Of a stretch of DNA of 43,266 nucleotides, positions 13,589-41,270 are shown in pieces. A program made the position numbers and the translations under genes. This stretch comes from Staphylococcus phage vB_SepS_456. The stretch lies in the sequence record MW364973.1. The stretch is one strand, 5' to 3'. How positions within the stretch are numbered: the stretch's first letter is position 1; each line of letters opens with the position of its first letter. Below the pieces are notes generated by a model. It ran no database searches. It was not told the DNA's origin and saw only the letters and a program-made list of their open reading frames with translations.

Positions 13589-15445
13589 TTGCCAATATTA
13601 TTAAAAACGTTACAGGGCATTGGGCAATCCCTACCTGTAGAAACAAAATTAAACGAGAAATTAAATGAAGATGGCTCCTTAGAAATAGAAATGGTAGAAA
13701 ACAAAGCTACATTTGACGCTATAGGGGCTATTACTAAAATGTGGACGATTACAGGTGTTGGTGGTGCTGATGACCTAAACGAATACCGTATCGTTATGTT
13801 AGACAAAACAACTGTAGGTCAAAAGGAAAAGTTAACAATCAAAGCGCGTCCTGTTGAATTAGACGACCTAAACAATTTAAGGGTGTACGAAGTATATAAT
13901 GGTAGTTTTACAGGAAAAAGCTACTTTGATTTAGTTTTTAAAGATACTGGATATAAGTACGAATTACACGCTAAGGTTTCATCTTCTAGGTTTGAAAATC
14001 TAGGTAACCACGACACTAATTTAGAATTATTCAAAAAAGGTTTGGAAAGATATAACTTAGAATATGAATATAACGCCAAAACAAAGACGTTTCATTTATA
14101 TGATATTGTTCAAAGAAAAGCTAACTATTACATTAAAGCAGGTGTCAATGCTAATAATGTAAAAGTTCAAGAAGATGCTTCTAAATGTTACACATACATT
14201 AGAGGGTATGGTGGTTTTGATGAGCAACAAACTTTCAACGAAGCTAGCTTGCAATATGAGTATACACACCCCTTAGCTGACTTAATAGGCAAACGCCATG
14301 CACCACCTGTTATAGATGGACGCATAACTAAAGGGGATACACTGAAAAAAGCTATGGAGTTAGTTATACAAGAAAGTTTAAAAACGTCTGTAACACTAGA
14401 TTTCATTTCTTTGCAAAAACATTTTAAAGAAGCAGTGCCTAGAGTTGGGGATATTGTGAATGTAATTGATGATTTAATAGGTTTAAATGAGTTTGTTAGA
14501 ATTATCGAAATCACTACACAACGAGATATTAACAACAAGATTATAAAACAAGACGTAGTACTTGGGGAATTCAGATTACAAGATAGATATATGAAAGCAG
14601 TAAATACTGCTGCAAATTATGTTAAAGCTATTAAGTCTAACAAATCTGATCCAGCTAAAGACTTAAGGATGATTCAAGCTCAAAACAACGCAAATACTAA
14701 GACTGCACAAGATTTACAGAAGAAAACCGATGAAATAAAAAGAAGATTAGAAAGCGCGCATGCTAAGAGTGTTACAACTGCAAACGGTACTATTGTTCAC
14801 GACTTTACACCTAAATCTAAGATTAGGAAAGTTAAAACAATAGGTACTATTGGAGATTCTGTAGCTAAAGGTTCAGGTGCTAAAACCAACTTTACGCAAA
14901 TGTTAGCTAAGAAGATTAAGGCTAAGTCAACTAACTTAGCTGTTAGTGGTGCGACAATGAGCACAAACAAAGAGAATAGCATATATGAACAAGCGACTAA
15001 AATTAAAGGTGATTTAATCATTGTTCAAGGTACAGATGACGACTGGACAAACGATATTAAGATAGGCACTGATAAAACGGATACTAAAACGTTTTACGGT
15101 GCCTTTTATAGTGCTATCACTAAAATCAAGAGTAATAACCCTAACTCTAAAATAATTGTTATGACACCTACTAAACAATGTTATATAAAAGACGGCAAAA
15201 CCGTAAGAAAAGACACTACTAAGAACGATTTAGGTCATACTTTAGCTGATTATGTAGATGTTCAAATAGACGCTTGTAACGAACTGGATATACCTGTGTA
15301 TGACGCTTATCATTCAACACAATTCAAACCCAATATACCTTCGTACAGAAAATCGAGTATGCCTGACGGGGTACACCCTAATGAAAAAGGGCACGAGGTC
15401 ATTATGTATGAATTGATTAAAAACTTTTATGGTTTTTATGGCTAA
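13589..15445 (+). CDS. Tail-associated protein (Tal) with C-terminal SGNH/GDSL esterase domain
   Basis: 618 aa after Dit; C-terminal IGTIGDSVAKGSGA (GDS block) and DGVHPN block typical of SGNH hydrolases; TTG start with AGGAGG RBS. Confidence 0.65.
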   Translation: MPILLKTLQGIGQSLPVETKLNEKLNEDGSLEIEMVENKATFDAIGAITKMWTITGVGGADDLNEYRIVMLDKTTVGQKEKLTIKARPVELDDLNNLRVYEVYNGSFTGKSYFDLVFKDTGYKYELHAKVSSSRFENLGNHDTNLELFKKGLERYNLEYEYNAKTKTFHLYDIVQRKANYYIKAGVNANNVKVQEDASKCYTYIRGYGGFDEQQTFNEASLQYEYTHPLADLIGKRHAPPVIDGRITKGDTLKKAMELVIQESLKTSVTLDFISLQKHFKEAVPRVGDIVNVIDDLIGLNEFVRIIEITTQRDINNKIIKQDVVLGEFRLQDRYMKAVNTAANYVKAIKSNKSDPAKDLRMIQAQNNANTKTAQDLQKKTDEIKRRLESAHAKSVTTANGTIVHDFTPKSKIRKVKTIGTIGDSVAKGSGAKTNFTQMLAKKIKAKSTNLAVSGATMSTNKENSIYEQATKIKGDLIIVQGTDDDWTNDIKIGTDKTDTKTFYGAFYSAITKIKSNNPNSKIIVMTPTKQCYIKDGKTVRKDTTKNDLGHTLADYVDVQIDACNELDIPVYDAYHSTQFKPNIPSYRKSSMPDGVHPNEKGHEVIMYELIKNFYGFYG

Positions 15446-20617: not shown

Positions 20618-22528
20618 ATGGGATTACCTAGTCCTAAAAGAAGAAAACCTACTGCTTCGGAAGTTGCAGCATGGGCAAAAAGGATGATTGGCAGAAGAGT
20701 TGATGTAGACGGTTATTATGGCGCCCAGTGTTGGGATTTACCAAACTACATTTTCAATAGATATTGGCATTTTAAAACAACAGGAAATGCGATTGCTATG
20801 GCATGGTATAGATATCCTAAAGGCTTCAAATTCTATAGGAACACTAGAAACTTTGTTCCGAAACCTGGTGACATGGCAGTTTGGGGAAAGGGCTCCTTTA
20901 ATAACGGTGTTGGGCATACTGCTGTTGTCATAGGTCCATCTACCAAAAGTTACTTTACTAGTGTGGATCAAAATTGGATTGGTGCAAATAGTTATACAGG
21001 CTCACCTGGTGCGAAAATTAAACATAGTTATAACGGTATAAGTGGGTTCGTCAGACCTCCCTACCACGCAGAAACTAAGAAACCATCGAAACCAAGTAGT
21101 ACACCGTCCAAACCTTCTAATGACAACACTCCTAAAAACACAAAAGAACAAACAAAACCTATAACTAAAGAGATTACCAAAGTTTCCTATACATCATTCG
21201 CATACGATTTAGACGATGATTTGGAATATATTTATCATTACATGGTTGAAGGGCAAAAGTTGATAGGGAAGGTAAAAGGTATATATATCAAAGAGAGTAC
21301 ACATATGCGTTCTGTTGAAGAATTGTATTTACAACGTAATAAATATGTGAATGAAGATGAATACCCTCATGTATATATTGACCGTGAGCGTGTATGGACA
21401 CCTAGACCTGATTCAGAAGAAGCACCAGAACATCCAGGTTGGCTTGTTATGGAAGTTTGCGGAGGACAAACGGATAGCAAACGCCAATTCATGCTCAATC
21501 AAATCAGAGCGTTAATCTACGGCGTTTGGTTGTTAAGTTGGAGTAAGGTGAAACTTTCTGAATCGTCAATCAAAGCAGATCCTAACATATGGCGTTCTAT
21601 GAAAGACTTAATCAATTACGACTTAATCAAAAACGGTATTCCTGATGAAAGTAAATATAAAGAAGTAGAAAAGAAAATAATAGGTTTATATTTAAAAAGA
21701 GATAAATTACTCACAGAAACGATTACCACAACAACTACAAAGACAACCATAAAGATTAAACCTAAAACTTCGGTCGATAACCCTGAACAGAACGACAAAC
21801 CGACAGACAAAAAAAGCAAAACAACAAACAGAACTTCGAATAAACCTCGTGTAGTTGTAGAGAAAAGTAAATATACTTTCCAACAAGCACTGAACGCGCA
21901 AATGGCACATGGTATGCCTCAAAAATCTTACAGTTGGGGTTGGGGCAATGCTTCTAGGTCACAAACAAGTAAGTATATGAACCCTAACACTATATGGAAT
22001 AGTTCAGTACAAAGGTATCAAATGTTGGATTTAGGTAAGTATCAAGGTATACCAGTAAGTAAGTTGAATAAGATACTTAAAGGTAAAGGTACTTTATCCG
22101 GTCAAGGTAAAGCTTTCGCAGACGGTTGTAAGAAATACAACGTAAATGAAATATACTTAATTGCTCACGCATTCTTAGAAAGTGGATATGGCCGTAGTAA
22201 CTTTGCCAGTGGACGTTATGGTATTTACAATTACTTTGGTATTGCAGCATATGACAATAACCCTAATGCTTCCATAGCTTACGCTAGAAGACAAGGTTGG
22301 ACGAGTCCACGTAATGGTATTATAGGTGGGGCTAAGTTCGTTAGAAAACAATTCTTTAATCAAGGTAAGAACACTTTGTACCGAATGCGTTGGAACCCTA
22401 AAAACCCCGGTCGTATGCAATATGCTACTGCGATTGAGTGGTGTAATTTCCAAGCAACAACAATAAACAGTTTATACAAAAAAGTAGGATTAAAAGGTAT
22501 GTATTATATCAGAGATAAATATAGATAA
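20618..22528 (+). CDS. Virion-associated peptidoglycan hydrolase: N-terminal CHAP, C-terminal glucosaminidase (GH73)
   Basis: 636 aa; N-terminal ..DGYYGAQCWD..GHTAVV.. (CHAP Cys/His); S/T/P/K linker; C-terminal ..YLIAHAFLESGYG.. glucosaminidase block; in tail module, not adjacent to holin. Confidence 0.8.
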   Translation: MGLPSPKRRKPTASEVAAWAKRMIGRRVDVDGYYGAQCWDLPNYIFNRYWHFKTTGNAIAMAWYRYPKGFKFYRNTRNFVPKPGDMAVWGKGSFNNGVGHTAVVIGPSTKSYFTSVDQNWIGANSYTGSPGAKIKHSYNGISGFVRPPYHAETKKPSKPSSTPSKPSNDNTPKNTKEQTKPITKEITKVSYTSFAYDLDDDLEYIYHYMVEGQKLIGKVKGIYIKESTHMRSVEELYLQRNKYVNEDEYPHVYIDRERVWTPRPDSEEAPEHPGWLVMEVCGGQTDSKRQFMLNQIRALIYGVWLLSWSKVKLSESSIKADPNIWRSMKDLINYDLIKNGIPDESKYKEVEKKIIGLYLKRDKLLTETITTTTTKTTIKIKPKTSVDNPEQNDKPTDKKSKTTNRTSNKPRVVVEKSKYTFQQALNAQMAHGMPQKSYSWGWGNASRSQTSKYMNPNTIWNSSVQRYQMLDLGKYQGIPVSKLNKILKGKGTLSGQGKAFADGCKKYNVNEIYLIAHAFLESGYGRSNFASGRYGIYNYFGIAAYDNNPNASIAYARRQGWTSPRNGIIGGAKFVRKQFFNQGKNTLYRMRWNPKNPGRMQYATAIEWCNFQATTINSLYKKVGLKGMYYIRDKYR

Positions 22529-27270: not shown

Positions 27271-27271
27271 A

Positions 27272-27315
27272 CGGAAGTATACACATTAAATATTAATCGA
27301 GTGTCTATACTTCCG
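27272..27315. other. Candidate attP for the serine integrase: 44-bp imperfect inverted repeat (cggaagtata ... tatacttccg) abutting the int 3' end
   Basis: Perfect 10-bp outer arms with further imperfect symmetry inward around an AT-rich centre; serine-integrase attP sites are typically ~40-50 bp quasi-palindromes next to int. Confidence 0.4.
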
Positions 27316-27323
27316 TACATAAG

Positions 27324-28693
27324 TTAATAAAATTCTATATCATTTATTTTGATAGAATGCCTGTTTTTAAGTTTTACATAATCTATGTCAATAGATTTAA
27401 TAGCCATTTTAATAAAATCTGCTTTATCTTCCAACGAGAATATTTTCCATGATTCCAATAATGCATTTTTAAATTTTTTTATCTTATCTATATCTAGTGA
27501 TTTTCTGGGTACTAATTCTTTTTGCTTTTCATATTCTGCTATTGTTTCGTCTGTTTCTTTAATCAATTCAAATAATTCTTCTTCTTGCATTAACCCTTTA
27601 GCATATAATTTATGATACCTTTTACGTTGTTCCATAATCTTGTCTATATCAATAGTAACGACATCGTCTTTTTGTTTTGTCTTTACTTCATATTTATCTA
27701 AGTCTAGTTTAGATAGGTAATCACGAAACACTCTCAATGCTTCATTCTCTGAAAAACCGAAACTTTGTTTTTTAGTTTTACATGTGTTGCAATAATATGT
27801 TTTATAAGTAACATACCCTTTCTTTCTCTTTCTTGTTGCTGTGTTCATTGTTAATGTGCCACCACATCTCGGACAAATAAATTTACCTCTGAACACTGAT
27901 ACGTGACTGACTATTTTAGTATTGATTCGTTCTTCTAGCCTTTCTTTTATTTGTTGATACATTTCTTCGGTAATAATAGGCTCGTGAGAGTTTTCTATAA
28001 ATACATCTCCCCAAGTATAATGACCTCTTGTTATAGGGTTTCTTAGCGCTCTCGTTATTGTTCTATCTTCCCACCTTTTGCCATTAGGAGGTGGTATATC
28101 TGAATCGTTTAATTTTCTAGCTATAGCTTTTGAACTATTACCTTTCATCACTTCGTCATATGCCCATAAAACTACTTTTTTATAATCATTAGGAATGTAA
28201 GTGTTATCTACACGATCATAATAAAAGGGTGGTGGTGTGAGTATCATACCTTGTTTAATCGCTGCGCGTTTACCCATCATAACACGCTCTCTAATGGTTT
28301 CTCTTTCCCACTCTGCCATAGCACCAACTAACGTAACAAACAGTCTACCCATAGCTGTAGATGTATCATAAACTTCAGTAGCACTTCTGAATGCTACGTT
28401 ATTCTGTTCGAATACCTCTAATAAATCAAGTAGATCACGCACATTACGTGTAAGCCTGTCTAACTTATACACTAAAACTAAATCAAACCGTTTAATATCA
28501 TTCATCATACGTTGTAATTCCGGTCTGTCACGCTTAGCGCCAGAGAAACCAGCGTCGATAAATACGTCTGATACACTCCAGTCGTTTATCTCGCAAAATG
28601 ATTTGAGCTTTCTTTCTTGTTCTTCAATAGAATAACCATGTTCTTTTTGTTCTAATGTACTGACCTGACACGAACGTAAATAGCTACGTTCAT
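27324..28693 (-). pseudogene. int: Large serine recombinase (integrase) disrupted by a 5-bp tandem duplication (+ strand CTGAC CTGAC, 28660-28669) just before the catalytic Ser codon
   Basis: Native ATG 28693 (RBS aaggggtg, 7-nt spacer) gives MNVAIYVRV then shifts to RSVH* (stop 28652-54). The body frame (..QVSTLEQKEHGYSIEEQ.., C-terminal CPRCGG..CNTC zinc ribbon) is otherwise intact. Removing one GTCAG copy restores MNVAIYVRVSTLEQ. Confidence 0.75.
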
Positions 28694-28754
28694 AATTCAT
28701 CACCCCTTAAAAAAGTAAAAAAATAATAAGGGTAGGCAAGCTACCCATGAATTA

Positions 28755-29321
28755 TTATATTTTTCCGTCCCACGCCTCATTTGCCACTCCATTTGTAGTT
28801 GAACGTGGTAATGGTTCTTTAAAACTTCTACGATCTACACCTTGATTTTGATTATTTTGCGGTACTTTCTCCATTTGTGACTCATTGTGAGTAGTTGTTT
28901 TCGTTCTATTCCATTCGTCAATTTCTGATTGGGTCATGTAACCATTATTATTTTGCATTTGTTGGTTGTTATTAGCTTGTTGCTGATTGTTTTTTTGTTG
29001 TGTTGCTTGAGCTTGTTTACCTTGTGATCGTTCATTATTACCATTATTACTTTGAGTTTTGCTATTGTCATTTTTAGATGTGCTTTCAGATTTATTGCTA
29101 GTAGTATCATTGTTAATACCATCTGAACTAGATTGTTGTTTATCGTCATTAGTGTTTTTGTTTGATTCATTCTTACTATCTGATTTCTTCGGACCATTCG
29201 ACTTCTTATCTGATTTACTTTCAGACTTCTTATTATCATCTTTATTCGAGTTATCCCCATTTTGTCCACATGCACCTAATACTAATAAGCTTGCAAATAT
29301 TAAAAATAAAACCTTTTTCAT
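28755..29321 (-). CDS. Lipoprotein with long disordered Ser/Asn/Gln/Lys-rich low-complexity region
   Basis: 188 aa; signal peptide plus lipobox LVLGAC at residues 13-18; >120 residues of low complexity; between int and immA-like gene. Confidence 0.7.
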   Translation of the reverse strand: MKKVLFLIFASLLVLGACGQNGDNSNKDDNKKSESKSDKKSNGPKKSDSKNESNKNTNDDKQQSSSDGINNDTTSNKSESTSKNDNSKTQSNNGNNERSQGKQAQATQQKNNQQQANNNQQMQNNNGYMTQSEIDEWNRTKTTTHNESQMEKVPQNNQNQGVDRRSFKEPLPRSTTNGVANEAWDGKI

Positions 29322-29338
29322 TCTACGTTTCTCCTTTT

Positions 29339-29809
29339 TTATATTTCTTTATATTTAAAAACTCTTAACGGATCAAATGTAATTAAGTATTCTCCGTAGT
29401 TAGTTCCAATGCCATATTTGTTTTTGTAATGCTTCAATATTTCTGCTATATACTTTTCGCTTAATTGAACGTATTCAGCTAATTCATATAAGTTACTAAC
29501 ACCATAGTTATGCGCCTCCATAATAATGCGCAAAGGTAGAGCTGCTTCATATCCATAACGCCTAGCGTAGTTTTCAAATTTGCGGTTTATATCTTTAGAT
29601 TGATCTAAGATGTTTCCGTATGTAAGTTTATGATGTGCTAGTTCTTCGTATAATACCTCAGCTTTACGTCTTTCAGACAGGTTTTTATCGATAAGTATTA
29701 CTCCATCTTTATAAAAACCACTATATCCATTAGGTAACGAGTGTGTGTCTTTAATTTTAATGTGTTCATTCTTAGTAAGTAATTCTTCGTAATGTGACAA
29801 TAAAATCAA
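29339..29809 (-). CDS. ImmA/IrrE-like (DUF955-like) protein, possible metallopeptidase with atypical EELAHH in place of HExxH
   Basis: 156 aa directly downstream of cI in the leftward lysogeny operon, which is the usual ImmA position; the motif is not canonical, so activity is uncertain. Confidence 0.4.
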   Translation of the reverse strand: MILLSHYEELLTKNEHIKIKDTHSLPNGYSGFYKDGVILIDKNLSERRKAEVLYEELAHHKLTYGNILDQSKDINRKFENYARRYGYEAALPLRIIMEAHNYGVSNLYELAEYVQLSEKYIAEILKHYKNKYGIGTNYGEYLITFDPLRVFKYKEI

Positions 29810-29814
29810 TCCCT

Positions 29815-30147
29815 TTATTTATCTTCGTTTTTAAATCTATCAATCAAACTTAAAATATAGTCTACATCCTCCTTTTTTAGCTCGCCTTCTAAATGCGCGG
29901 CTAGTGTTTGAGGTTCCTCGATTTTCATTTCTTTTCTTCCACTTAACTCATCCAAAGATACGTTAAAGTAATCCGATAACGCGCTAGCATGTTCCATAGA
30001 AGGGCTAGTAACACCTTTTTCCCATCAATCTATTGATGCTTTTGAAAATTTAACTTCATATTTTGCATTAAGTCTGTCACTCAATTCTTTTAATGATAAG
30101 TCACGTGATTTTCTTAATTTACTAAGGTTGTCTGAGAAATTAGTCAT
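29815..30147 (-). pseudogene. cI: cI-like XRE-family repressor interrupted by an in-frame TGA (+ strand tca at 30025-30027) at codon 41, inside the HTH recognition helix
   Basis: From ATG 30147 (RBS aaggagt): MTNFSDNLSKLRKSRDLSLKELSDRLNAKYEVKFSKASID*WEKGVTSPSMEHASALSDYF...NEDK. HTH consensus ..S.stIs(R/K)wE.G predicts Arg (CGA or AGA) at the stop position. Many genes in the window end in TGA, so TGA is a stop in this code. Confidence 0.75.
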
Positions 30148-30171
30148 GTTTTTACTCCTTGTTTGTTTTTT

Positions 30172-30194
30172 ACAAACTTATTATATAAGTTTGT
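30172..30194. promoter_or_regulatory. Perfect 9-bp-arm palindromic operator ACAAACTTA-ttata-TAAGTTTGT in the cI-cro intergenic region
   Basis: Read directly; related half-sites (acaaattta / aaatttatt) recur downstream at 30215-30250. Confidence 0.6.
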
Positions 30195-30249
30195 TCTCAT
30201 ATTTGCAACACATTTTACAAATTTATTTCTCAAAAATGAAATTTATTCG

Positions 30250-30278
30250 TTGACAACGAAACAGTCGCCTTGTATAGT
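30250..30278 (+). promoter_or_regulatory. Early rightward promoter (PR-like): TTGACA -17 nt- TATAGT
   Basis: ttgaca 30250-55, tatagt 30273-78, exact 17-nt spacer, ~45 nt upstream of cro. Confidence 0.65.
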
Positions 30279-30322
30279 AATTAGTGTAATCTCATAAATG
30301 AGACGAAAGAGGTGATAAAAAC

Positions 30323-30565
30323 ATGAATAAAAAGAGATATCAAGATTTACGAAATTTCATTGATGAGAGTAAGTATTCTCATAAAGATGTCGCTAACATG
30401 ATTGGTATGAATCCTGCACGCTTTAGTCAAAAGATTAATAAAAACAAAAGCAATTTTACTATTGATGAAGCAAGTGCGATTTGCGATGTTTTAGATATTA
30501 GTATGGATGATTATTTTTTTAATCACAATGTCTCAAAAATGAAACGAGAACCACAAACAACTTAA
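30323..30565 (+). CDS. cro: Cro-like XRE-family HTH regulator
   Basis: 80 aa; ..SHKDVANMIGMNPARFSQKINKNKSNFTIDEASAICDVLD.. HTH_3 pattern; divergent from cI; RBS gaggtga. Confidence 0.7.
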   Translation: MNKKRYQDLRNFIDESKYSHKDVANMIGMNPARFSQKINKNKSNFTIDEASAICDVLDISMDDYFFNHNVSKMKREPQTT

Positions 30566-30577
30566 GGAGGAATTCAA

Positions 30578-30742
30578 ATGAAAGAAGAAAAATTAGATGC
30601 GATTTTAAAAATAATAGAAGGCATGCCTAAATACGAGTGGGACAGAATTGCACATGAAGTTAGCAAAGCTTACAGCCATAAGACCGTCAAGGTAGAGCTT
30701 GACAGTCATAGCTGTAAAACAATTAGAAAATCACTTAGTTAA
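30578..30742 (+). CDS. Small early protein (54 aa)
   Basis: ORF not in track; RBS aaggagg with 7-nt spacer; MKEEKLDAILKIIEGMPKYEWDRIAHEVSKAYSHKTVKVELDSHSCKTIRKSLS. Confidence 0.5.
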   Translation: MKEEKLDAILKIIEGMPKYEWDRIAHEVSKAYSHKTVKVELDSHSCKTIRKSLS

Positions 30743-40289: not shown

Positions 40290-40292
40290 TAA

Positions 40293-40526
40293 ATGAACGC
40301 AGAAGCTAAGTTTGTATCTAGTGTTATGGACGCTAGATTGAAGAAGGTTAAAAGAGAACGTGACAGTTTCCGTAAGCAACGTGATGAACTTATCAATGAT
40401 ATGGCAGAAACGAAAAAGAAAGCGAAGGCGTTTGATGAGATTTTAAACGTTGACTATATAGTAACGCCTGATGATTATGCACATGAAATCACAAAAATTG
40501 TAGATAAATACTGGGAGGAACAATAA
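40293..40526 (+). CDS. Hypothetical coiled-coil protein
   Basis: 77 aa. Confidence 0.4.
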   Translation: MNAEAKFVSSVMDARLKKVKRERDSFRKQRDELINDMAETKKKAKAFDEILNVDYIVTPDDYAHEITKIVDKYWEEQ

Positions 40527-40555
40527 ATGACTATAAAAACAATTGGAGGCTTGCA

Positions 40556-40735
40556 ATGAACAATAGAGAGTTTATTCAACGCTGTATAGTATCTTCTACA
40601 GCTTTTACAGGGCATGACGGGTGTTTACTAATCAAAGAGATTAACGAAGTATATCGTAAGGCGGAGCTGTACGACAAGATTGTTGAAAGTAATTCAAAGA
40701 GTTTAGTAGAAAATGGAGGAACAATAAATGACTAA
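40556..40735 (+). CDS. Small protein (59 aa)
   Basis: Not in track; RBS ggagg + 6 nt; overlaps the dut start. Confidence 0.4.
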   Translation: MNNREFIQRCIVSSTAFTGHDGCLLIKEINEVYRKAELYDKIVESNSKSLVENGGTIND

Positions 40736-41270
40736 AGAACTAGAAATTAAATTATTAACAGAAAATGCGACTATGCCAAAGAGAGATAGGTTAGATGCTG
40801 GGTACGATATCTATTCAGCAGAAACAGTAATACTTGAGCCACAGGAAAAAGCAGTAATTAAAACAGATATAGCAGTAAACATACCTGAAGGATATGTAGG
40901 GTTGTTAACTTCAAGAAGTGGTGTAAGTAGCAAAACGCATTTAGTGATTGAAACTGGCAAGATTGACGCCGGCTATCAAGGTAATTTAGGGATTAATATT
41001 AAGAATGATATGGAACAAGATAACTCCATGAGTATATACGATGATTTAGACGGGCAATTAGATGACGATGTGGTCAGTGTATTGAATATAAAAGGAGACT
41101 TTATTCAAGGAAATAATAGTTTCAATAAAACTGTTTACCAAATCAATAAAGGCGACAAACTAGCACAGTTAGTTATCGTACCTATTTGGACACCAGAGTT
41201 AAAAGAAGTAGAGGGGTTTAGCAGTGAGTCAGAAAGAGGAGAGCGAGGGTTTGGATCAACAGGGTTCTAA
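40728..41270 (+). CDS. dut: Trimeric dUTPase with phage-specific extra motif-VI insertion
   Basis: 180 aa; dUTPase motifs (..RSGVSSK.., ..IDAGYQG.., C-terminal ..GERGFGSTGF) plus ~40-aa insertion DMEQDNSMSIYDDLDGQLDDDVVSVLNIKGDFIQGNN. Confidence 0.85.
   Translation: MTKELEIKLLTENATMPKRDRLDAGYDIYSAETVILEPQEKAVIKTDIAVNIPEGYVGLLTSRSGVSSKTHLVIETGKIDAGYQGNLGINIKNDMEQDNSMSIYDDLDGQLDDDVVSVLNIKGDFIQGNNSFNKTVYQINKGDKLAQLVIVPIWTPELKEVEGFSSESERGERGFGSTGF

What the first reader, a model, noticed from the sequence alone, without database searches (positions are those of the whole stretch)
27272..30300. Both lysogeny keys (cI and int) are broken while the rest of the ~43-kb genome is intact: a virulent derivative or a locked-in prophage
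Two independent lesions, a nonsense codon in cI and a 5-bp duplication in int, fall in the only two genes needed to establish and exit lysogeny. I saw no interruption in any structural, lysis or replication gene. A cI null would be selected during lytic propagation (clear plaque), and int loss is then neutral. This is the pattern expected of a lytic-propagated isolate of a temperate phage, for example a therapy or biocontrol candidate. If the element sits in a chromosome it would instead be a non-excisable prophage, but without cI it would be lethal unless another repressor compensates.
Basis: inference. Interest (0 to 1): 0.75.

Follow-up and report, generated by a model that had tools for sequence, protein, structure and literature searches.

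The report
Broken repressor, unbroken but odd integrase
This is the genome of Staphylococcus epidermidis typing phage 456: its cI repressor really is cut short by a stop codon, but the 5-base "duplication" in its integrase is the normal state of that gene in a whole family of phages that integrate perfectly well, which raises the question of how the gene is read.

Summary
The window is a complete, unintegrated phage genome: Staphylococcus phage 456, about 99.5% identical to CNPH82.

**cI:** the nonsense codon is real. CGA became TGA at 30027-30025 (R41*), and cI is the only gene disrupted relative to CNPH82. The same 40-aa and 60-aa fragments are annotated in two independent GenBank records made from two separate stocks, so it is not a sequencing artefact. 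It parallels the cI nonsense mutation of the strictly lytic phage phiIPLA5.

**int:** the GTCAG-GTCAG repeat (28669-28660, minus strand) is real and derived, but it is not a lesion of this genome.
- All 11 related S. epidermidis phages checked have it, as do 31 of 36 close alleles sampled without reference to the site.
- At least 5 integrase lineages only 41-70% identical share it.
- The window's Int is 100% identical to that of phage 459, which was experimentally shown to integrate. Phage 456 itself was reported to integrate.

So "two independent lesions" fails. One key (cI) is broken; int is not.

The residual puzzle is how int is read. The ribosome-binding site serves an ATG that is out of frame with the catalytic serine. 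A +5 ribosomal hop (GTC, rare AGG, then GTC) would restore the wild-type enzyme. This is inferred, not shown.

The parts
27271..27316 (.). attP. Core ATATTAAT at 27290-27297, flanked by imperfect inverted arms ACGGAAGTATA (27271-27281) and TATACTTCCGT (27306-27316). P and P' arms are contiguous, so this is the unintegrated form.
   Evidence: It matches the attP/attL sequence and overlap published for these phages (PMC8125051) and the attP-L feature of IME1348_01.
27324..28700 (-). int as annotated in GenBank relatives: 458 aa from the upstream ATG at 28700-28698, a large serine recombinase. Residues 1-12 (MNYERSYLRSCQ) are an out-of-family N-terminus created by the 5-nt insertion.
   Evidence: Pfam Resolvase at residues 13-151 (profile positions 7-143 only), Recombinase, and a weak Zn_ribbon_recom match. 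The protein is 100% identical to CNPH82, phiIPLA7, 459 and IME1348_01.
28652..28693 (-). Canonical int start (ATG 28693-28691) and the 13-codon frame it opens: MNVAIYVRVRSVH, then TAG at 28654-28652. The first 9 codons are the true family N-terminus.
   Evidence: Translation. Homologues without the insertion start M[KN]VAIYxRVST.
28660..28669 (-). The 5-nt tandem repeat GTCAG GTCAG. Proposed take-off codon GTC (28669-28667), minor Arg codon AGG (28666-28664), landing codon GTC (28664-28662), followed by AGT ACA = Ser-Thr.
   Evidence: The landing codon is GTC, GTG or GTT (all Val) in other lineages, while GTC-AGG never varies.
28699..28708 (-). Shine-Dalgarno sequence AAGGGGTGAT. It lies 9 nt from the canonical ATG and overlaps the upstream ATG.
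   Evidence: Duplex with the 16S tail: -13.5 kcal/mol with spacing 9 for the canonical ATG, and spacing 3 for the upstream ATG. Of 49 phage genes with a good SD, 45 use 5-10 nt.
28669..28694 (-). Predicted 11-bp leader hairpin. It contains the canonical AUG in its 5' arm, and its 3' arm ends at the first base of the take-off codon.
   Evidence: The whole 106-nt fold has z = -1.17, which is not significant. The role is speculative.
28730..28746 (-). Conserved hairpin GGGTAGCTTGCCTACCC plus T-run upstream of int. It is the staphylococcal conserved 40-bp int 5' region, described in S. aureus as a sigma-H-dependent int promoter.
   Evidence: PMC2869324 names CNPH82 and PH15 as carrying the same conserved region.
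28755..29321 (-). 188-aa low-complexity putative lipoprotein (cn33 homologue), intact.
   Evidence: Weak lipoprotein signal-like match.
29339..29809 (-). ImmA/IrrE-type metalloprotease (Peptidase_M78), intact, immediately downstream of cI.
30025..30147 (-). cI N-terminal fragment: 40 aa ending at the premature TGA (30027-30025), where CNPH82 and BE20 have CGA.
   Evidence: The exact 40-aa product is annotated in two phage 456 records (QQV93317, QLF86451).
29815..30024 (-). Rest of the cI frame (residues 42-110 of intact cI). The 60-aa ORF from Met51 (29997) has no recognisable ribosome-binding site.
   Evidence: The 60-aa product is annotated as QQV93316 and QLF86450.
30180..30208 (-). Promoter-like site for cI (TTGCAA-17-TATAAT). 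It overlaps the perfect palindrome ACAAACTTAT-ATA-ATAAGTTTGT (30172-30194), a likely operator. It is intact here.
30250..30278 (+). Promoter-like site for cro (TTGACA-17-TATAGT).
30323..30565 (+). cro-like HTH repressor, intact.

Best explanation
The window is the packaged-form genome of S. epidermidis typing phage 456, a CNPH82-like temperate siphovirus (Rockefellervirus).

**cI.** Its immunity repressor carries a genuine, old nonsense mutation (R41*, CGA to TGA) inside the recognition helix of the HTH. The phage therefore makes no functional repressor from this gene. It should behave as a clear-plaque, repressor-defective derivative, as expected after decades of serial lytic propagation.

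**int.** The integrase is not a second casualty. The 5-nt insertion GTCAG is the normal, widely distributed state of this serine-integrase 5' end, and it is compatible with site-specific integration.

**How active Int is made (inferred).** Ribosomes start at the well-placed canonical ATG and read MNVAIYVRV. They pause with peptidyl-tRNA-Val on GTC and the minor codon AGG in the A site. A fraction then re-pairs 5 nt downstream on the duplicated Val codon and continues S-T-L-E-Q. This yields the wild-type enzyme at a low, attenuated level.

**Shown:** the lesion in cI, its uniqueness to 456, the ubiquity of the int insertion, and the identity of Int to alleles in integrating phages.

**Inferred:** the loss of stable lysogeny and the hop.
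For: **Identity and context**
- Exact cI fragments and the dUTPase match records of phage 456 from two laboratories.
- The stocks came from Hajek (Olomouc) and Donlan (CDC).
- The window is 99.5% identical to CNPH82, with differences clustered in mosaic fashion and circularly permuted by 63 nt. attP is intact.

**cI**
- The single C-to-T change is the only difference from BE20 in the aligned 541-nt cI segment (window 29800-30340).
- cI is the only CDS disrupted, and the HTH_3 match is lost in both fragments.
- Most homologues in the protein database are full length (110 or 128 aa).
- Precedent: phiIPLA5, TAC to TAA in cI, strictly lytic (PMC3505474).

**int is not broken**
- Same repeat in 11/11 related phages, and Int is 100% identical to 459, phiIPLA7, CNPH82 and IME1348_01.
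- In a sample chosen by the Int body alone, 31 of 36 alleles at 95% identity or more have it.
- At least 5 lineages share the cassette.
- Laboratory lysogens of 27, 48, 456, 459 and E72 all integrated at one site (PMC8125051).

**Hop**
- SD spacing is 9 nt for the canonical ATG and 3 nt for the upstream ATG.
- The hop product regains Resolvase profile positions 1-6: 156.8 vs 144.7 bits. It also aligns from residue 2 with TP901-1 integrase.
- I/L, Y and R at positions S-5, S-4 and S-2 are invariant in 54/54 homologues lacking the insertion. They become R, S and Q in the upstream-ATG product.
- Leader substitutions seen are non-coding, synonymous or family-tolerated (A4G, N2D) in the canonical frame. 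In the other frame they are all non-synonymous: N/Y/H, E4G, S6R, C11R.
- There is 1 segregating site in positions -10..+36, against 4-10 per 27 nt downstream.
- General precedent for hopping and for AGG as a slow A-site codon comes from PMC5009743.
Against: **cI phenotype**
- PMC8125051 lists 456 among the phages used to lysogenise their propagating strains and says all integrated. PMC10117716 tabulates 456 as temperate.
- If stable, immune 456 lysogens really form, the R41* allele is not null in practice. Possible routes are UGA read-through, revertants, or helper immunity in the host.

**Hop**
- There is no direct evidence.
- AGG is a minor but not the rarest codon in the phage: 3.1 per 1000, against 0.9 for CGG.
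- Every insertion-bearing allele also keeps the upstream in-frame ATG. GenBank and PGAP annotate that 458-aa product.
- AlphaFold2 can thread YLRSCQV as the first strand, albeit at pLDDT 54-58.
- The low leader diversity could reflect recent gene conversion rather than constraint.
- The predicted hairpin is not statistically supported.
Confidence: 0.72

Rival explanations
1. One reading: cI and int are two independent knock-outs. The phage is a virulent derivative in which int decayed neutrally after cI was lost, or else it is a non-excisable prophage.
For: The cI stop is real. The 5-nt repeat does put the catalytic Ser out of frame with the canonical ATG. The rest of the genome is intact.
Against: - The int repeat is shared by all relatives that have an intact cI: CNPH82, BE20, phiIPLA7, 459 and others.
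- It is also present in about 100 database contigs across at least 5 Int lineages. It therefore predates the cI mutation and cannot be a consequence of it.
- Phages with the identical Int integrate.
- The genome is in unintegrated order with attP intact.
Confidence: 0.04
2. Int is simply translated from the upstream ATG (28700), as annotated. The 458-aa protein, with MNYERSYLRSCQ replacing MNVAIYVR, is the active integrase. No recoding is involved.
For: - There is a continuous ORF from that ATG.
- The ATG is conserved in every insertion-bearing allele seen. It already existed in insertion-free alleles such as StB20, which could explain why the duplication was tolerated.
- AF2 places residues 7-13 as a strand.
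- Only a little integrase is needed.
Against: - The ATG sits 2-3 nt from, and partly inside, the SD helix. Of 49 genes with a good SD in this phage, 45 use 5-10 nt.
- The product lacks the invariant I/L, Y and catalytic-motif R of the first strand (54/54 homologues) and loses profile positions 1-6.
- pLDDT is only 54-58 there.
- All substitutions in that frame are non-synonymous, i.e. there is no sign of purifying selection.
- From my own knowledge, not tested here: the Arg two residues before the nucleophilic Ser is required for catalysis in Tn3 and gamma-delta resolvase.
Confidence: 0.3
3. The cI stop is functionally suppressed or compensated, and phage 456 remains temperate in practice. Routes would be UGA read as Trp at a low level, revertants in the stock, or a related resident repressor in the propagating strain.
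For: Published statements say that 456 was lysogenised and integrated (PMC8125051) and list its lifestyle as 'temperate' (PMC10117716). From my own knowledge: UGA is read through as Trp at a few percent in Bacillus subtilis.
Against: - 'Temperate' in PMC10117716 is a prediction from gene content.
- The readout in PMC8125051 is mer-int junction PCR, which a functional Int would give even without stable repression.
- By alignment with the 434 repressor recognition helix (my own inference), read-through would put Trp at a DNA-contacting position.
- The same stop survives in two long-separated stocks. That is what relaxed or positive selection for clear plaques predicts.
Confidence: 0.2
4. Either lesion is a sequencing or assembly artefact.
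For: None specific. Single-base substitutions and short repeats can be miscalled.
Against: The split cI is in two independent records from two laboratories and stocks. The int repeat is in dozens of independent assemblies.
Confidence: 0.02
5. The 5-nt repeat is a DNA-level switch. It collapses by slippage in a minority of genomes, and only those revertants make Int.
For: Insertion-free alleles with the identical leader exist at 95% Int identity (L121-L123).
Against: - Virion DNA from induced prophages (27, 48, 459, E72, IME1348_01) carries the repeat, although excision needs Int in the same cell.
- From general knowledge: two copies of a 5-mer are a poor slippage substrate.
- The insertion-free alleles also differ at nearby sites (ACGTTAGAG vs ACATTAGAA), so they are not simple revertants.
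Confidence: 0.04

Closest known systems
Staphylococcus phage vB_SepiS-phiIPLA5 (cI nonsense mutant, strictly lytic)
   Same: It is an S. epidermidis siphovirus of the same group. A single base change creates a stop codon in the cI-type repressor, splitting it into two ORFs, with the rest of the lysogeny module present. The authors use this to explain its failure to lysogenise (PMC3505474).
   Different: It has a different cI allele and position (TAC to TAA), and a different, int2-type integrase. For 456 no phenotype has been tied to the mutation, and the papers on it call it temperate.
Staphylococcus phages CNPH82 and vB_SepS_BE20 (nearest relatives with intact cI ORF)
   Same: The lysogeny module is about 99.4-99.5% identical, with the same Int protein (100% for CNPH82; three substitutions in BE20), ImmA, cro and attP.
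   Different: Both have CGA at cI codon 41. CNPH82 additionally has a 13-bp tandem duplication between the -35 and -10 of the cI promoter, which 456 and BE20 lack. Terminase, hydrolase and late-regulatory regions are mosaic.
Large serine recombinases of phages, closest solved example TP901-1 integrase (PDB 3BVP)
   Same: Resolvase catalytic domain, Recombinase domain and zinc-ribbon architecture, with attP adjacent to the gene. The canonical-frame/hop product aligns from residue 2: NVAIYVRVST vs KVAIYTRVST.
   Different: The coding sequence is interrupted by 5 nt between the codons for Val9 and Ser10. No such interruption is described for TP901-1, phiC31, Bxb1 or A118, as far as I know and in the searched literature.
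Translational bypassing/hopping (T4 gene 60; short hops over stop or 'hungry' codons) and Ty1 +1 frameshifting at CUU-AGG-C
   Same: The take-off and landing codons match and are non-overlapping (GUC then GUC/GUG/GUU). A slow AGG lies in the A site and a zero-frame stop follows soon after, so the product is encoded in two frames (PMC5009743).
   Different: The gap is 5 nt rather than 50. No nascent-peptide or stem-loop signals have been established. Efficiency is unknown and nothing has been demonstrated experimentally. It would also be in an integrase, where no bypass is known.
'Savior' or compensated indels, e.g. HSV thymidine kinase G-run indel with low-level frameshifting
   Same: A frame-disrupting indel is retained because a low level of ribosomal correction gives enough product (PMC5009743).
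   Different: Here the indel is not a recent escape mutation. It is a conserved cassette spread across several gene lineages.

Membership tests
Large serine recombinase (phage integrase) | N-terminal Resolvase catalytic domain followed by a Recombinase domain and zinc ribbon | tested here: met
   PF00239 141 bits and PF07508 78 bits. PF13408 scores 23.6 bits, just under its cut-off of 25.3. The N-terminal domain is a close match to TP901-1 integrase.
Large serine recombinase (phage integrase) | Y-x-R-x-S active-site motif (nucleophilic Ser with Arg two residues before) in the translated product | tested here: inconclusive
   The motif is present only if translation starts at the canonical ATG and skips 5 nt. 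The annotated upstream-ATG product has S-C-Q-V-S instead.
Large serine recombinase (phage integrase) | Catalyses attP x attB integration | not testable with these tools
   Literature only. Phages with the identical or near-identical allele, and 456 itself, integrated at ATATTAAT in a FAD-oxidoreductase gene (PMC8125051). The matching attP is present at 27271-27316.
cI/Cro (XRE-HTH) immunity switch with ImmA/IrrE protease | Divergent cI-like and cro-like HTH genes around an intergenic region with two face-to-face promoters and repeated operators | tested here: met
   HTH_3 in intact cI and HTH_26/HTH_3 in cro. P_cI and P_cro. Palindrome and half-site repeats.
cI/Cro (XRE-HTH) immunity switch with ImmA/IrrE protease | Full-length repressor ORF | tested here: not met
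   Stop at codon 41 of 110. Neither fragment matches any Pfam family.
cI/Cro (XRE-HTH) immunity switch with ImmA/IrrE protease | Peptidase_M78 (ImmA/IrrE) gene adjacent to the repressor | tested here: met
   PF06114 33 bits, at 29339-29809.
Repressor-defective (clear-plaque) derivative of a temperate phage | Loss-of-function mutation in the maintenance repressor relative to otherwise near-identical temperate relatives | tested here: met
   CGA to TGA, unique to 456 among CNPH82, BE20 and the wider homologues.
Repressor-defective (clear-plaque) derivative of a temperate phage | Inability to form stable immune lysogens | not testable with these tools
   No phenotype data specific to 456. A published aggregate statement of lysogenisation points the other way.
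Programmed translational bypass (hop) | Matched, non-overlapping take-off and landing codons for the same tRNA | tested here: met
   GTC then GTC, 5 nt apart. The landing codon varies GTC/GTG/GTT (all Val) between lineages.
Programmed translational bypass (hop) | Slow-to-decode or stop codon immediately 3' of the take-off codon | tested here: inconclusive
   AGG occurs at 3.1 per 1000 in phage ORFs, against AGA at 21 and CGT at 13.7. It is minor but not the rarest codon. The host tRNA pool was not examined. In two lineages TGA follows AGG directly.
Programmed translational bypass (hop) | Initiation in the upstream frame | tested here: met
   The SD is positioned for the canonical ATG at spacing 9 and -13.5 kcal/mol. 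This is a prediction, not a measurement.
Programmed translational bypass (hop) | Trans-frame protein product detected | not testable with these tools
   No proteomic data are available.

The most novel reading that the evidence does not exclude
A family of staphylococcal phage serine integrases is decoded by a programmed +5 ribosomal hop.
- A roughly 45-nt leader cassette comprises an SD, the canonical ATG, nine codons, then GTC-AGG-GTN. It places the catalytic Ser out of frame, and only ribosomes that hop from Val codon to Val codon over AG-G make active integrase.
- The cassette is nearly invariant, with 1 polymorphic site in 47 nt against about 0.25 per nt downstream.
- It has spread by short-patch recombination into at least five integrase lineages only 41-70% identical.
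- It is the majority state in S. epidermidis phages. This suggests selection for attenuated or physiologically gated Int synthesis, for example linked to AGG decoding.
Probability: 0.4. Interest if true: 0.8.

Novelty: new variant of a known kind. Interest (0 to 1): 0.55.

Why it matters
**cI.** The result is ordinary. A long-propagated typing phage carries a repressor nonsense mutation, already visible as two cI CDS in GenBank, like phiIPLA5. [quoted passage not shown] It still has a working integrase and transduces plasmids, which matters for safety assessment.

**int.** The result is unexpected. A frame-disrupting 5-nt insertion sits exactly between the catalytic Arg and Ser codons of a demonstrably functional, very common integrase.
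- Annotation pipelines silently 'repair' it by choosing an upstream ATG that is badly placed for initiation.
- If the hop is real, it would be a rare natural case of short translational bypass, and a new layer of control over lysogeny in skin staphylococci.
- If the upstream-ATG protein is the active form, it would show that a serine recombinase tolerates replacement of its first strand and of the conserved Arg.

Either answer is informative, and both can be tested with simple constructs.

Tried and rejected
- **Broken cI alleles in resident prophages.** I looked for them to see whether a cI-less prophage can persist. Truncated members exist. The one large contig I could fetch is a long-read assembly with fragmented genes throughout, i.e. 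indel artefacts. I dropped this line.
- **Species-representative genomes.** A scan for the insertion junction gave a single hit, in a Rheinheimera assembly with 33% GC. This is evidently staphylococcal contamination and says nothing about host range.
- **Known elements.** An Rfam scan of 27-31 kb and a tRNA scan of the whole window found no known recoding element, riboswitch or phage tRNA.
- **RNA fold of the int leader.** A local 11-bp hairpin is predicted, but the overall z-score is -1.17, not significant.
- **AlphaFold2 of the upstream-ATG N-terminal domain.** The first 20 residues have pLDDT 54-58, so it can neither support nor exclude that product.
- **-1, +1 and +2 frameshifting.** I considered these in the leader. 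There is no slippery heptamer and no cognate re-pairing codon for tRNA-Val at those offsets (read directly from the sequence). Rejected in favour of the +5 hop.
- **The 13-bp difference at 30189.** I first took it for an operator deletion in the window. It is in fact a duplication private to CNPH82.
- **Literature.** No paper in the searched library describes the int insertion or a bypass in an integrase.

Full report
**What the window is.**
- The 43,266-bp window is a complete staphylococcal siphovirus genome.
- It is 99.3-99.6% identical to S. epidermidis phage CNPH82 over almost its whole length and circularly permuted by 63 nt.
- The 174 differences in the first 40 kb are clustered at 0-2 kb, 21-22 kb and 39-41 kb. 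This is the pattern of a mosaic natural relative, not of a laboratory derivative.
- An exact-sequence look-up of four window proteins identifies it. The two cI fragments and the dUTPase are annotated in 'Staphylococcus phage vB_SepS_456' (QQV933xx; MW364973 per PMC8125051) and in 'Staphylococcus phage 456' (QLF864xx, 43,393 bp; MT596497 per PMC10117716).
- The window starts at the same base as the records of phages 27 and 459 from the same authors.
- Phage 456 is an old S. epidermidis typing phage. It was obtained with its propagating strain from V. Hajek by one group (PMC8125051) and from R. Donlan at CDC by the other, after its use against catheter biofilms (PMC10117716).

**Context: phage, not prophage.**
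- The genes run terS...lysis, then the leftward lysogeny module (int, lipoprotein, ImmA, cI), then rightward cro, ant, replication and rinA.
- attP is uninterrupted just downstream of int. The published crossover core ATATTAAT lies at 27290-27297, between the inverted arms ACGGAAGTATA and TATACTTCCGT (PMC8125051; IME1348_01 attP-L).
- There is no bacterial DNA at either end.

**The cI lesion is real and private.**
- The minus-strand frame 30147-29815 reads MTNF...SKASID*WEKGVTSPSMEHAS....
- The stop is TGA at 30027-30025. CNPH82 and the skin isolate BE20 have CGA (Arg41), and this is the only difference from BE20 in the aligned 541-nt cI segment (window 29800-30340).
- Intact cI is 110 aa with an HTH_3 domain spanning residues 9-68. 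Neither the 40-aa nor the 60-aa fragment matches any Pfam family.
- By alignment with the 434-type recognition helix, Arg41 sits at a base-contacting position. This is my own inference.
- Most homologues in a 5.8-billion-protein search are full length, at 110 or 128 aa.
- Two laboratories sequencing stocks with separate histories found the same two fragments. The mutation is therefore old and is not a sequencing error.
- It is the only CNPH82 CDS that lacks a full-length counterpart. The exceptions, cn58 and dut, are allelic replacements.
- A direct precedent exists: phiIPLA5 has a TAC-to-TAA change splitting its cI, and its authors use this to explain its strictly lytic behaviour (PMC3505474).

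**The int 'lesion' is real as sequence but is not a lesion of this phage.**
- The minus strand reads ...AAGGGGTG ATG AAT T ATG AAC GTA GCT ATT TAC GTT CGT GTC AG GTC AG T ACA TTA GAA....
- From the second ATG the frame gives MNVAIYVRVRSVH*.
- From the landing GTC the frame gives VSTLEQKEHGYSIEEQ....
- Removing five bases would give MNVAIYVRVSTLEQ. That is exactly the N-terminus of S. capitis phage StB20 and the consensus of all other homologues.
- But the same ten bases are present in all of these:
  - CNPH82, BE20, phiIPLA7 (temperate) and CNPx
  - IME1348_01 and PH15
  - the induced prophages 27, 48, 459 and E72
- They are also in 27 of 27 IMG/VR contigs retrieved by the flanks and in 42 metagenome contigs.
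- In a sample retrieved through the body of the protein, blind to the site, 31 of 36 alleles at 95% identity or more carry the insertion. Three of the five that lack it have the identical leader minus the five bases.
- The window's Int is 100% identical in amino-acid sequence to that of CNPH82, phiIPLA7, 459 and IME1348_01.
- Fisarova et al. report that the genomes of 27, 48, 456, 459 and E72 all integrated into the same FAD-oxidoreductase gene in laboratory lysogens. The attL of the phage 48 lysogen was sequenced (PMC8125051).
- Hence the allele works, and it was already in this state long before cI was hit. 'Two independent lesions in the only two lysogeny genes' is not what is there.

**An unexpected breadth.**
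- The odd N-terminus M[N/Y/H]YERSYLRS[C/R]QVS[T/S] also heads integrases only 70%, 69% and 42% identical to this one. These are clusters of 93, 33 and 824 sequences.
- At the DNA level, about 45 nt from the SD to the repeat are nearly identical in at least five Int lineages. The sequences diverge immediately after the repeat and upstream of the SD.
- Within the main lineage there is a single segregating site between -10 and +36. The following 27-nt windows have 4-10 each.
- The cassette has therefore spread by short-patch recombination, is under nucleotide-level constraint, or both.

**How can the gene work?**
- Annotators use the ATG seven bases upstream (28700), which the insertion happens to put in frame.
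- That ATG lies 2-3 nt from, and partly within, the SD helix. The canonical ATG is 9 nt from it, with a predicted duplex of -13.5 kcal/mol. Of the 49 genes in this phage with a good SD, 45 have spacings of 5-10 nt.
- The upstream-ATG product replaces the first beta strand. In 54 of 54 homologues lacking the insertion, the residues at S-5, S-4 and S-2 are I/L, Y and R. In the six upstream-ATG proteins they are R, S and Q.
- Pfam's Resolvase profile matches that product only from profile position 7 (144.7 bits). A product that skips the five bases matches from position 1 (156.8 bits) and aligns from residue 2 with TP901-1 integrase.
- The few substitutions seen in the leader behave differently in the two frames:
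  - In the canonical frame they are non-coding, synonymous (CGT to CGC) or family-tolerated (A4G, N2D).
  - In the other frame they are all non-synonymous (N/Y/H, E4G, S6R, C11R).
- The duplication itself creates a matched pair of Val codons five bases apart with AGG, a minor Arg codon, between them. AGG occurs at 3.1 per 1000 against 21 for AGA.
- Across lineages the landing codon varies GTC/GTG/GTT, always Val. GTC-AGG never varies.
- I therefore favour initiation at the canonical ATG followed by a +5 hop in a fraction of ribosomes. This would give authentic Int at a low level.
- This is inference. AlphaFold2 can thread the alternative N-terminus as a strand, though at pLDDT 54-58. Every insertion-bearing allele also keeps the upstream ATG, and no protein data exist.
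- No -1, +1 or +2 shift offers cognate re-pairing, and there is no slippery heptamer (sequence).
- No Rfam family or tRNA is involved.
- A predicted 11-bp hairpin holds the canonical AUG and ends at the first base of the take-off codon, but the fold is not statistically distinguished from shuffles.

**What the phage most likely is and does.**
- It is a CNPH82-like temperate phage whose repressor gene was inactivated by R41*. The rest of the switch appears intact: P_cI, P_cro, operators, cro, ImmA and Ant.
- Its integrase and attP are in the same state as in integrating relatives.
- It should therefore infect lytically on non-immune hosts and remain sensitive to immunity from a resident homologous repressor. 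That makes it a c-type mutant, not a vir-type one. It should still be able to recombine attP with attB.
- That last point reconciles the published PCR evidence of 456 integration with a null repressor. The mer-int junction PCR reports Int activity, not stable immunity.
- The conflict is nevertheless real. Both papers temperate, one of them purely from gene content. If stable TGA-bearing lysogens exist, then read-through or compensation must be invoked.

**Novelty and verdict.**
- The cI half of the finding is correct, ordinary and already visible in GenBank as two 'putative CI-like repressor' CDS, although neither paper mentions the split cI in the passages I retrieved (term searches only).
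- The int half is a correct observation with the wrong interpretation.
- What remains is a conserved, frame-breaking 5-nt insertion at the catalytic motif of a working, very common integrase. It is not described in the searched literature and deserves a direct test.
- Overall interest is moderate (0.55). The hop reading has a probability of about 0.4 and would merit about 0.8 if true.

Noticed in passing
window 30189 vs CNPH82 (L001 3692-3704; DQ831957 30121-30133): The CNPH82 reference carries a 13-bp tandem duplication (AAATATGAGAACA x2) between the -35 (TTGCAA) and -10 (TATAAT) of the cI promoter. This stretches the spacer from 17 to 30 nt. Phage 456 and BE20 have one copy. The reference CNPH82 may therefore itself be a repressor-promoter mutant, i.e. 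a different route to the same lytic bias.
   Followed up: partly
window 28652-28708 and loci L042-L047, L139-L143: The roughly 45-nt int leader cassette with the 5-nt insertion is shared by at least 5 serine-integrase lineages (41-70% identical), with divergent sequence on both sides. The landing codon varies GTC/GTG/GTT. In two lineages the change to GTG also creates TGA directly after AGG in the zero frame, plus an SD-like AGGTGA.
   Followed up: yes
window 28669-28694 (minus strand): A predicted 11-bp hairpin sequesters the canonical int AUG, and its 3' arm ends at the first base of the proposed take-off codon. Of the three variable sites, one falls in the loop, one keeps pairing as G-U, and one breaks a terminal pair.
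   Followed up: partly
L048 (NZ_JBHLXP010000009.1, Rheinheimera tilapiae KCTC 23315 assembly): A 79.7-kb contig in a gammaproteobacterial assembly carries the staphylococcal phage int 5' end, with 33% GC in the 8 kb fetched. This is almost certainly S. epidermidis contamination of that assembly.
   Followed up: partly
window 30578-30742 (+): A 54-aa ORF just after cro is intact here and in BE20, and is very common in S. epidermidis (one cluster member is on about 1000 contigs). It is unannotated in CNPH82 because that record lacks one A (window 30595).
   Followed up: partly
window 40290-41270: A mosaic replacement relative to CNPH82. The cn58 acetyltransferase is absent or replaced by a 77-aa ORF. 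The dUTPase is a different 180-aa allele, only 39% identical to cn60, of the type found in phiIPLA5 and many S. epidermidis genomes.
   Followed up: partly
window 15058-15071 and 21807-21815: There is a compensating -1/+1 indel pair 13 nt apart in the tail-lysin gene (cn19 homologue), and an in-frame 9-nt insertion in the cell-wall hydrolase gene, both relative to CNPH82. Both ORFs stay open. The indel pair looks like an error in the 2006 CNPH82 record.
   Followed up: no
window 30168-30227: Candidate operators. There is a perfect palindrome ACAAACTTAT-ATA-ATAAGTTTGT (30172-30194) overlapping the -10 of P_cI, and a repeated half-site TTTTACAAAYTTATT (30168-30182 and 30213-30227).
   Followed up: no
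L091 (ENA ERZ1329869 tig00000018): Apparent truncated cI alleles in public protein clusters can come from long-read assemblies with pervasive indels. Genes are fragmented all along this contig, so they are not evidence for cI-less prophages.
   Followed up: yes
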